From Eledone cirrhosa (lineage: Eukaryota), in NCBI GenBank assembly GCA_964016885.1, contig OZ024762.1, forward strand, positions 24,242,001 through 24,306,000: a DNA stretch of 64,000 nt. The letters run 5' to 3'. Shown piece after piece: positions 25,504 through 25,712 of the stretch. The first letter of the stretch is position 1; each line of letters opens with the position of its first letter. The translations under genes and the position numbers were made by a program. The notes under the pieces were generated by a model. That model ran no database searches and had not been told where the DNA came from. It was given only the letters and a program-made list of their open reading frames with translations.

Positions 25504-25712
25504 CGTAGGTCCCGGGTTGAGTCGGGGATAACCACAGTAAGTAAGGTACTCAATACATGGCAGAGTAAAATTTTTTATTTTATAGAAGGAGCTTCTACAG
25601 GACTAGTACTGTTTCATTCAGATGAAATCTTCAGAAAGCTTCCTGAAGATTTCATCTGAATGAAACAGTACTAGTCCTGTAGAAGCTCCTTCTATAAAAT
25701 AAAAATAAAAAA
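25504..25712. mobile_element. (TA)n-embedded foldback element with hammerhead ribozymes
   Basis: Perfect 63-bp arms 25572-25634 and 25643-25705, 8-nt loop, left tail with GTAAGGTACTCAATACATGG; related copies at 45432-45575 and 49100-49252. Confidence 0.85.
25637..25687 (+). ncRNA. complete type I hammerhead ribozyme (mirror copy on the minus strand)
   Basis: AGCTTC-CTGAAGA-T-TTCA(TC)TGAA-T-GAAA-CAG(TACTAGTC)CTG-TA-GAAGCT: 6-bp helix I, 4-bp helix III, GUA cleavage triplet ending at 25681. Confidence 0.8.

What the first reader, a model, noticed from the sequence alone, without database searches (positions are those of the whole stretch)
25504..25712. Two overlapping back-to-back hammerheads sharing a central AAGCTT
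Seen: the 8-nt loop AAAGCTTC supplies the 5' strand of helix I for the + ribozyme (AGCTTC/GAAGCT, GUA at 25681). Its complement supplies AGCTTT for the identical minus-strand ribozyme. Copies at 49100 (CTGATGA instead of CTGAAGA, a change at the free N7 position) and 45432 change the helix III loop but keep CAG/CTG. Inference: selection on the fold, with inversion primed at a short palindrome inside the ribozyme. The U-U opposition at the base of helix II is atypical.
Basis: partly seen in the sequence, partly recalled or inferred. Interest (0 to 1): 0.7.

Follow-up and report, generated by a model that had tools for sequence, protein, structure and literature searches.

The report
Back-to-back copies of Penelope leader RNA
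This mirror-image stretch is two head-to-head copies of the hammerhead-bearing end of an abundant Penelope-type jumping gene, a known layout, and the place where hundreds of such copies stop likely marks the start of the element's RNA rather than a fold-back at the small central palindrome.

Summary
The 63-bp-arm palindrome and both hammerhead motifs are real. They are the terminal repeat (pLTR) of a Hydra-clade Penelope-like retrotransposon, with at least 1,497 young copies plus related subfamilies. It is laid down as a tailed arm and an inverted tail-less arm in (TA)n, a published layout that this scan also met in other genomes. Selection on the fold holds among subfamilies (invariant core, two compensatory pairs in helix I). 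The U·U pair is common in Hydra hammerheads (14 of 26 published rows). The other two window copies lack a complete ribozyme, and the hairpin is predicted to block both ribozymes here. AAGCTT is not the cause of the inversion: it is about 9% of junctions, and a subfamily without it stops at the same place. Arms stop at the first bases of helix I, 29-32 nt behind a conserved TATA box. They share segregating variants (28 of 28 pairs), and either arm can be the longer. Best reading: one uncleaved sense leader RNA is primed at two internal sites, both cDNAs run off its 5' end, and they are end-joined. Start site and cleavage are untested.

The parts
25504..25714 (.). One insertion of a Hydra-clade Penelope-like element: tailed arm plus inverted tail-less arm, head to head, in (TA)n; edges blurred by TA and A runs, no target-site duplication discernible
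25504..25571 (-). Tail: the part of the 5' leader between the two inferred priming sites, present on one arm only; in full-length copies it runs on into the ORF (start codon 183 nt after the first base of helix I)
25572..25634 (-). Left arm of the 63-bp inverted repeat (sense on the minus strand)
25590..25640 (-). Type I hammerhead motif, minus strand; helix I 5' strand AGCTTT (U.G next to the core), predicted cut after 25596
25637..25640 (.). Native AGCT tetramer at the first bases of helix I; shared microhomology of the junction and inferred transcription start of the source RNA
25637..25687 (+). Type I hammerhead motif, plus strand: helix I 25637-42/25682-87, core 25643-49, U.U 25650/25661, helix II 25651-53/25658-60, helix III 25665-68/25677-80 with a palindromic 8-nt loop, A17 at 25681
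25643..25705 (+). Right, tail-less arm of the inverted repeat; ends in the A/T-rich stretch at the upstream inferred priming site
45434..45572 (.). Older, subfamily-B-like head-to-head insertion; junction downstream of the core, no CTGANGA on either strand
49105..49254 (.). Older, subfamily-B-like head-to-head insertion; + arm has CTGATGA (49163) but lacks cleavage site and helix I 3' strand; - arm lacks the core

Best explanation
The stretch is a short insertion of a Hydra-clade Penelope-like retrotransposon, made of two head-to-head copies of its hammerhead-bearing leader, which were likely copied from one uncleaved sense RNA that likely begins at the first base of hammerhead helix I. Shown: family, layout, end positions, shared variants, TATA spacing. 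Inferred steps: (1) the TATA box in the pLTR starts Pol II at helix I, so hammerhead plus tail are the first ~140 nt of the RNA; (2) the RT/GIY-YIG protein nicks both strands of a (TA)n target and primes at two internal sites, one in the A/T-rich stretch just past helix I (tail-less arm) and one ~70 nt further on (tailed arm); (3) when this happens on the leader, both cDNAs run off the RNA 5' end; (4) host end-joining fuses the two ends using whatever microhomology is there (AGCT most often) or short templated inserts. Priming on the 3' pLTR of a long RNA gives the long inverted pairs. The short product has no TATA box and its hairpin would block both ribozymes, so it is probably dead. The hammerhead is under selection in the source elements, probably as a weak, dimer- or protein-assisted ribozyme.
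For: Family: the same motif ends ORF-bearing copies and precedes the start codon in tandem copies; natural ORF with RWR, DKT, YRDD, CxCx5C, GIY-YIG-like, CxxC and CxH motifs. Atlas neighbours at 0.96-0.99 carry HTH_animal/GIY-YIG/RVT_1 on part of their members. Hotspot: the further-reaching arm starts at -6..-3 (A of helix I = -5) in 43 of 55 A pairs, 25 of 38 C pairs and 7 of 13 B pairs; it passes -7 in 1, 3 and 0. Three of 11 single-arm A copies also start at -4 or -2. TATAAATA-type box 20-25 spacer nt before helix I in all 106 native arms matched by a pattern that required a box at 19-27 nt; box invariant at 7 of 8 columns among four subfamily representatives against 6 of 22 for the spacer. 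One template: arms agree at segregating site +15 in 28 of 28 C pairs (13 T/T, 14 A/A, 1 C/C; P=5e-8) and at +47 in 37 of 37. Only 1 of 58 short arms has a partner passing -7, against 24% long arms overall (P=2e-6). Two primings: the tail-less arm reaches further in 26 pairs, the tailed arm in 20, equal in 12. Uncleaved template: starts at the cut site 0.6% per nt (1.3% with helix-I overlaps) against 0.35% background and 5.8% at the hotspot. In vitro, an anole PLE nicks and extends both strands, starts at two internal sites that bound the tail, makes shorter products from 5'-shortened RNA, and uses uncleaved RNA (PMC11167929).
Against: No RNA evidence for the start site. The start site and the helix I boundary coincide in all subfamilies, so a structure-caused stop is not excluded. 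A cap-derived extra G is only suggestive: G before A(-5) in 8 of 11 insert-bearing A junctions, but inserts are often copied from G-rich neighbours, and T before G(-4) is at least as common. Arm concordance could also come from two RNAs of one source active at a time, or from later arm-to-arm conversion. In A the mirrored-variant test was not informative (2 observed, null mean 0.55, max 5). For 15 of 20 long tailed arms no partner lay within the fetched flank. The monomer's best fold is not the hammerhead (-6.7 against -9.8 kcal/mol). D. virilis Penelope has a TATA-less internal promoter (PMC2377424). Pfam and PDB sequence searches gave no hit for the ORF.
Confidence: 0.7

Rival explanations
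1. One reading: one cDNA folds back or switches template at the AGCT/AAGCTT palindrome inside the ribozyme and copies itself, so the palindrome causes the inversion.
For: The perfect AAGCTT junction is the commonest single junction: 129 loci, 6 of 90 sampled. Self-priming was proposed from junction palindromes in rotifer PLEs (PMC3846280).
Against: Same hotspot in subfamilies C and B without AGCT. Most junctions differ, many with inserts. One-way fold-back predicts that the tail-less arm never reaches further than the tailed arm, but it does in 26 of 58. Single-arm copies stop there too.
Confidence: 0.07
2. The RNA extends further upstream, and synthesis stops at helix I because of structure: the cDNA end pairs with its own copy of the other helix I strand, or the folded ribozyme or bound protein blocks the RT.
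For: The stop coincides with the helix I boundary in all subfamilies. The helix-I-overlap product exists: 12 loci in A and 8 of 30 sampled loci in C.
Against: That product is about ten times rarer than the AAGCTT junction in A. An RT meets the 3' strand of helix I first, about 45 nt earlier (inference). Independent stalling does not explain why short arms pair with short arms (1 of 58 mixed). It leaves the fixed TATA spacing unexplained.
Confidence: 0.15
3. All short copies began as perfect palindromes, made from an antisense template or a hairpin RNA, and their centres were later revised by cruciform break repair or conversion. That would give symmetric deletions, inserts and mirrored variants.
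For: Symmetry of arm lengths and templated inserts fit centre repair; one locus has a mirrored change in both cores (L017). Antisense self-priming was proposed in PMC3846280.
Against: It still needs a defined end at -5. Single-arm copies stop at the same place. The tail-less arm's outer end varies between copies, and short hairpins occur in every sub-lineage with that lineage's variants, so they did not spread from one hairpin master.
Confidence: 0.08

Closest known systems
Hydra clade of endonuclease-bearing Penelope-like elements (Craig et al. 2021, PMC8557442; passages, section 11 and supplement Files S1-S2 read)
   Same: C-terminal GIY-YIG-like domain without CCHH, DKT, RW(K/R), CxCx5C, CxxC and CxH motifs; (TA)n targets; hammerhead in the pLTR, often with U.U at the base of helix II; inverted 5'-truncated copy and one-sided tail.
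   Different: A different family from Hydra-1_Obim (different hammerhead and protein by eye). Units are 3.1-4.6 kb, not under 3 kb. Tail about 70 nt, not 30-40. Helix III has an 8-nt palindromic loop where listed Hydra motifs have 1-3 nt. No tree was built.
PAc, Poseidon element of Anolis carolinensis (Frangieh et al. 2024, PMC11167929; parts 1-2 of 4 read)
   Same: Two internal priming sites bounding the tail, both strands nicked and extended, uncleaved RNA as template, hammerhead near the RNA 5' part.
   Different: There the sites lie in the ORF and share no homology with the target; here they lie in the 5' UTR at TA-containing spots next to (TA)n. The parts read do not map a start site or explain head-to-head stubs.
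Adineta vaga Penelope insertions with inverted pLTR, junction palindromes, TATA and Inr-like motif (Arkhipova et al. 2013, PMC3846280; passages and Discussion read)
   Same: Head-to-head pLTRs, tail on one, palindrome at the junction, TATA box in the pLTR.
   Different: They favour self-priming on an antisense template and leave it open; the counts here favour two primings on one sense leader.
PLE hammerheads (Cervera and De la Pena 2014, PMC4209133; parts 1-2 of 4 read)
   Same: Type I hammerheads in pLTRs, palindromic loop 3, weak or dimer-dependent cleavage; pairs on opposite strands 100-700 bp apart already noted.
   Different: G10.1-C11.1 is conserved in their set; here U.U with a 3-bp helix II and a 4-bp helix III, and the two motifs overlap.
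Metazoan non-LTR retrozymes (PMC7229834, passages; bioRxiv 10.64898/2026.07.22.740005, part 1 of 5)
   Same: Short non-coding PLE-related repeats with type I hammerheads; axolotl HHR_Amex2 has U.U at the base of helix II and cleaves weakly alone, better as a dimer.
   Different: Retrozymes are head-to-tail arrays making circular RNA; this locus is an inverted pair without promoter.

Membership tests
Type I hammerhead ribozyme | Core CUGANGA, GAAA, UH in order with three helices | tested here: met
   core invariant among 4 subfamily representatives while N7 (0 of 1) and loop II (0 of 4) vary
Type I hammerhead ribozyme | Covariation in helices | tested here: met
   helix I: 2 pairs with changes on both sides, 98.6% of cells paired, slid controls 33-53% (11 hand-picked natural copies; pair-count measure not above shuffles, 213 of 500); helices II and III barely vary, so they are uninformative
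Type I hammerhead ribozyme | Purine-pyrimidine pair 10.1-11.1 | tested here: not met
   U.U in all 11 aligned copies; same in 14 of 26 Hydra rows and in a cleaving axolotl motif
Type I hammerhead ribozyme | Match to an Rfam hammerhead model | tested here: not met
   no hit at gathering threshold
Type I hammerhead ribozyme | Self-cleavage after GUA | not testable with these tools
   monomer fold not the minimum (-6.7 vs -9.8 kcal/mol); helix III segment dimer -15.2 vs monomer -1.4
Hydra-clade PLE | Single ORF, RT then C-terminal GIY-YIG without CCHH | tested here: met
   motifs in natural ORF L297; Atlas neighbours; no Pfam hit
Hydra-clade PLE | RWK, DKT, CxCx5C, CxxC and CxH motifs | tested here: met
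   RWR 38, DKT 116, CNCPDKTTC 567, CDLC 667, CMH 695
Hydra-clade PLE | Insertion into (TA)n | tested here: met
   79 of 90 tails followed by ATATATA; 51 of 58 tail-less ends reach (TA)4 within 45 nt
Hydra-clade PLE | Generally shorter than 3 kb | tested here: not met
   six hammerhead-to-hammerhead units of 3,068-4,596 bp; stated as a tendency only
Hydra-clade PLE | Placement in the RT phylogeny | not tested
   compared by eye with supplement proteins only
PLE insertion unit | pLTR in partial tandem before the ORF; inverted 5'-truncated copy; tail on one arm | tested here: met
Non-LTR retrozyme | Head-to-tail tandem units each with a hammerhead | tested here: not met
   this locus and 58 of 90 sampled are inverted pairs
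Hairpin element mobile as a unit (MITE- or SINE-like) | Fixed internal junction and fixed ends across copies | tested here: not met
   junctions and tail-less ends vary

The most novel reading that the evidence does not exclude
In this Hydra-clade family the promoter fires on the first base of the hammerhead, and the commonest insertion is a double 'strong-stop' product: two cDNAs primed at the two tail-bounding sites of one capped sense RNA, run off its cap and fused head to head. Thousands of junctions would then map the start site in DNA. They would also settle, for this clade, the open question of sense versus antisense template and of self-priming versus twin priming. The ribozyme could only remove a ~45-nt capped piece, which would make it an off-switch or a translation control, not a monomer-maker.
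Probability: 0.55. Interest if true: 0.55.

Novelty: new member of a known kind. Interest (0 to 1): 0.36.

Why it matters
As a locus it is ordinary transposon debris. As a family sample it links the in vitro PLE mechanism (two internal starts, both strands extended) to the unexplained head-to-head layout in genomes. It gives a base-level prediction for the start site and argues against antisense self-priming. It also implies thousands of perfect 60-bp hairpins in this genome that would form double-stranded RNA if transcribed.

Tried and rejected
RNA evidence: no RNA holder listed; two guessed-RNA runs with small shares laid no contig. This is no evidence either way. Rejected: the 209-nt hairpin as a SINE/MITE moving as a unit (looked so only because it ranks by likeness to the query; junction-independent samples vary). 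A tRNA B-box origin of the tail was considered by eye and dropped once the tail proved to be the 5' UTR. 'Cap G plus misread first base' (GT before G-4) looked strong (8 of 15) but not (A: AT 8, GT 6, CT 5 of 19 T-starts, one of them a native arm; C: CT 9, AT 4, GT 3), so it is dropped. Cleaved RNA as template: no clear peak at the cut site (the first classification mis-sorted overlaps and was redone). The depletion of ends at -7..-44 does not by itself separate run-off from stalling. The bacterial promoter scan was irrelevant. Pfam and PDB sequence searches of the ORF were blank; the large homologue search was not run. Literature searches found no paper mapping PLE stub ends to a start site; the library lacks most subscription papers, and bioRxiv supplements were not seen.

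Full report
Observation. The window holds a perfect 63-bp inverted repeat, 25572-25634 and 25643-25705, around AAAGCTTC, with a 68-nt unique part to the left and (TA)n on both sides. Each strand carries a type I hammerhead layout; the two overlap at AGCT, 25637-25640. The minus motif has U.G in place of C-G next to the core. The copies at 45432 and 49100 are older inverted pairs without a complete hammerhead. Rfam gave no hammerhead hit. Coordinates below: C of CTGANGA = +1, first base of helix I = -5, cut site between +39 and +40.

Family. The window lies in a 3.0-Gb, microsatellite-rich animal genome; earlier notes call it octopus-type, which I did not test. The genome holds 1,497 exact copies of a 38-nt tail word of this subfamily (A), 7,072 of subfamily C and 77 of B. 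In native arms the base before AGCTTC is C, not A, so only AGCT is a native palindrome; AAGCTT arises by the inversion. Longer copies carry an ORF starting MLT with RWR, DKT, YRDD, CxCx5C, a GIY-YIG-like segment without CCHH, CxxC and CxH. These are the marks of the Hydra clade (PMC8557442 section 11), and the protein resembles the published Hydra proteins by eye but is not Hydra-1_Obim. In tandem copies the order is TATA box, hammerhead, tail, then the start codon 183 nt after -5. So hammerhead and tail form both the 5' leader and the 3' end of a unit of 3.1-4.6 kb (six units).

Selection on the fold. Among one natural copy each of subfamilies A, B, C and D, the invariant columns are core 6 of 6 and 3 of 3, U.U 2 of 2, helix II 6 of 6 and helix III 8 of 8. 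N7 is 0 of 1, loop II 0 of 4, the upstream spacer 6 of 22 and the 3' flank 4 of 13. Helix I has two pairs changed on both sides (A-U to G-C, C-G to A-U) and one wobble (11 hand-picked copies; a few events, not many). U.U at the base of helix II stands in 14 of 26 Hydra rows of File S2 by my count; an axolotl motif with it cleaves weakly alone and better as a dimer (PMC7229834 passages). The monomer's hammerhead fold is not its minimum, while the palindromic helix III segment gains much as a dimer. In the insertion, the hairpin (-105 kcal/mol) leaves helix I with probability near 0 on both strands.

Sampling. For A, I used 90 of the first 100 listed tails on one contig. The 10 left out were 5 loci already fetched (3 long pairs, 1 pair joined near -20, 1 short pair), 3 units of an array of long pairs, and 2 neighbours of a fetched locus. 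For C, I used 70 of the first 73 (a cluster of 3 left out; L263 and L265 look like a duplicated locus and were both counted). For B, the first 30 of 77. Exact-word anchoring favours young copies.

Where arms end. Of 90 A insertions, 20 have a long tailed arm, 58 are short inverted pairs and 12 are short without a near partner; 6 have the exact AAGCTT junction (genome-wide 129). A second parser gives the further-reaching arm at -6..-3 in 43 of 55 A, 25 of 38 C and 7 of 13 B pairs, and beyond -7 in 1, 3 and 0. C and B lack AGCT. Three of 11 single-arm A copies start at -4 or -2. Junctions show 1-6-nt overlaps or short inserts copied from nearby, as expected of microhomology-mediated end joining (established knowledge). 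A TATAAATA-type box lies 20-25 spacer nt before helix I, that is 29-33 nt from its first T, the usual TATA-to-start distance (recalled), with the spacer sequence diverged. The pattern used required a box in that range, so one search shows spacing, not prevalence.

One template, two primings. In C, both arms carry the same allele at segregating site +15 in 28 of 28 pairs and at +47 in 37 of 37. Only 1 of 58 short A arms has a partner that passes -7, against 24% long arms overall. Of 5 long tailed arms whose partner was found, 4 partners were long and none began at the hotspot; 15 partners were not found. The tail-less arm reaches further in 26 pairs, the tailed arm in 20, equal in 12, which one-way fold-back cannot give. 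The helix-I snap-back product is rare (12 loci). Starts at the cut site are near background, so uncleaved RNA is the template. An extra G before -5 appears in 8 of 11 insert-bearing junctions; this is suggestive of a cap only, and T before -4 is as common.

Comparison. The layout is published: inverted 5'-truncated copy and one-sided tail (PMC8557442), junction palindromes and a TATA box in pLTRs with a proposal of antisense self-priming (PMC3846280), and hammerhead pairs on opposite strands (PMC4209133). The anole element primes at two internal sites, extends both strands and uses uncleaved RNA in vitro (PMC11167929), which supplies steps 2 and 3 by analogy. Earlier scan notes on other genomes reached similar readings; I had noted the start-site idea before seeing them, and they are not independent support. 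Eight paper searches found no paper mapping stub ends to a start site.

Verdict. Real feature, new family of a known clade, known layout. The added value is the family-level evidence for twin run-off from one sense leader RNA, which remains inferred until RNA 5' ends are mapped. Interest 0.36.

Noticed in passing
window 39676-39733 (-): Partial tRNA-like match (Rfam RF00005, 33.4 bits, model 8-63), probably the head of a tRNA-derived SINE.
   Followed up: no
window 32889-33870 (+): Broken LINE: two RVT_1 fragments and a weak PHD-like stretch; similar LINE-like fragments at 27631-28008, 29643-30256 and 59825-60361.
   Followed up: partly
window 59739-59779 and 18674-18702: Short, diverged matches to the tail word; possibly remnants of older related families.
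   Followed up: no
L298, about 2850-3180: Back-to-back pair of an unrelated hammerhead with a canonical G-C pair at the base of helix II, beside another Hydra-like ORF fragment; a place to test whether other families also stop at helix I.
   Followed up: no
L295 686-3168; L297 6127-7053; L299 7055-8410; L305 1424-2554: Other PLE-like ORFs (two Hydra-like, two with GIY-YIG-like ends of another type) lie directly next to copies of this family, suggesting nesting in shared (TA)n targets.
   Followed up: no
L297 1524-3992; L300 4733-7048: The ORF runs about 110 codons past the CxH motif into proline-rich, low-complexity sequence without a stop; whether this is translated is unknown.
   Followed up: no
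L062 1000-1320 and 1810-3340: The 3' UTR holds a diverged direct duplication of the block upstream of the TATA box and an internal inverted repeat of about 500 bp around microsatellites.
   Followed up: no
L070 (G000:C1:118474500-118478500): A whole inverted pair with flank is tandemly repeated three times at about 1,060-bp period.
   Followed up: no
L017: Both arms carry the same change at core position C3, a mirrored inactivating variant.
   Followed up: partly
PMC8557442 supplement, Hydra-2_Amil 3' end: A TATATATA run lies about 38 nt before the annotated helix I, hinting that a TATA box shortly before the hammerhead is wider spread in the clade.
   Followed up: no
window 48447-48989 and 53908-55874: Two arrays of the same ~62-bp satellite; other tandem arrays at 8464-9177, 13800-14300 and 58020-59393.
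   Followed up: no
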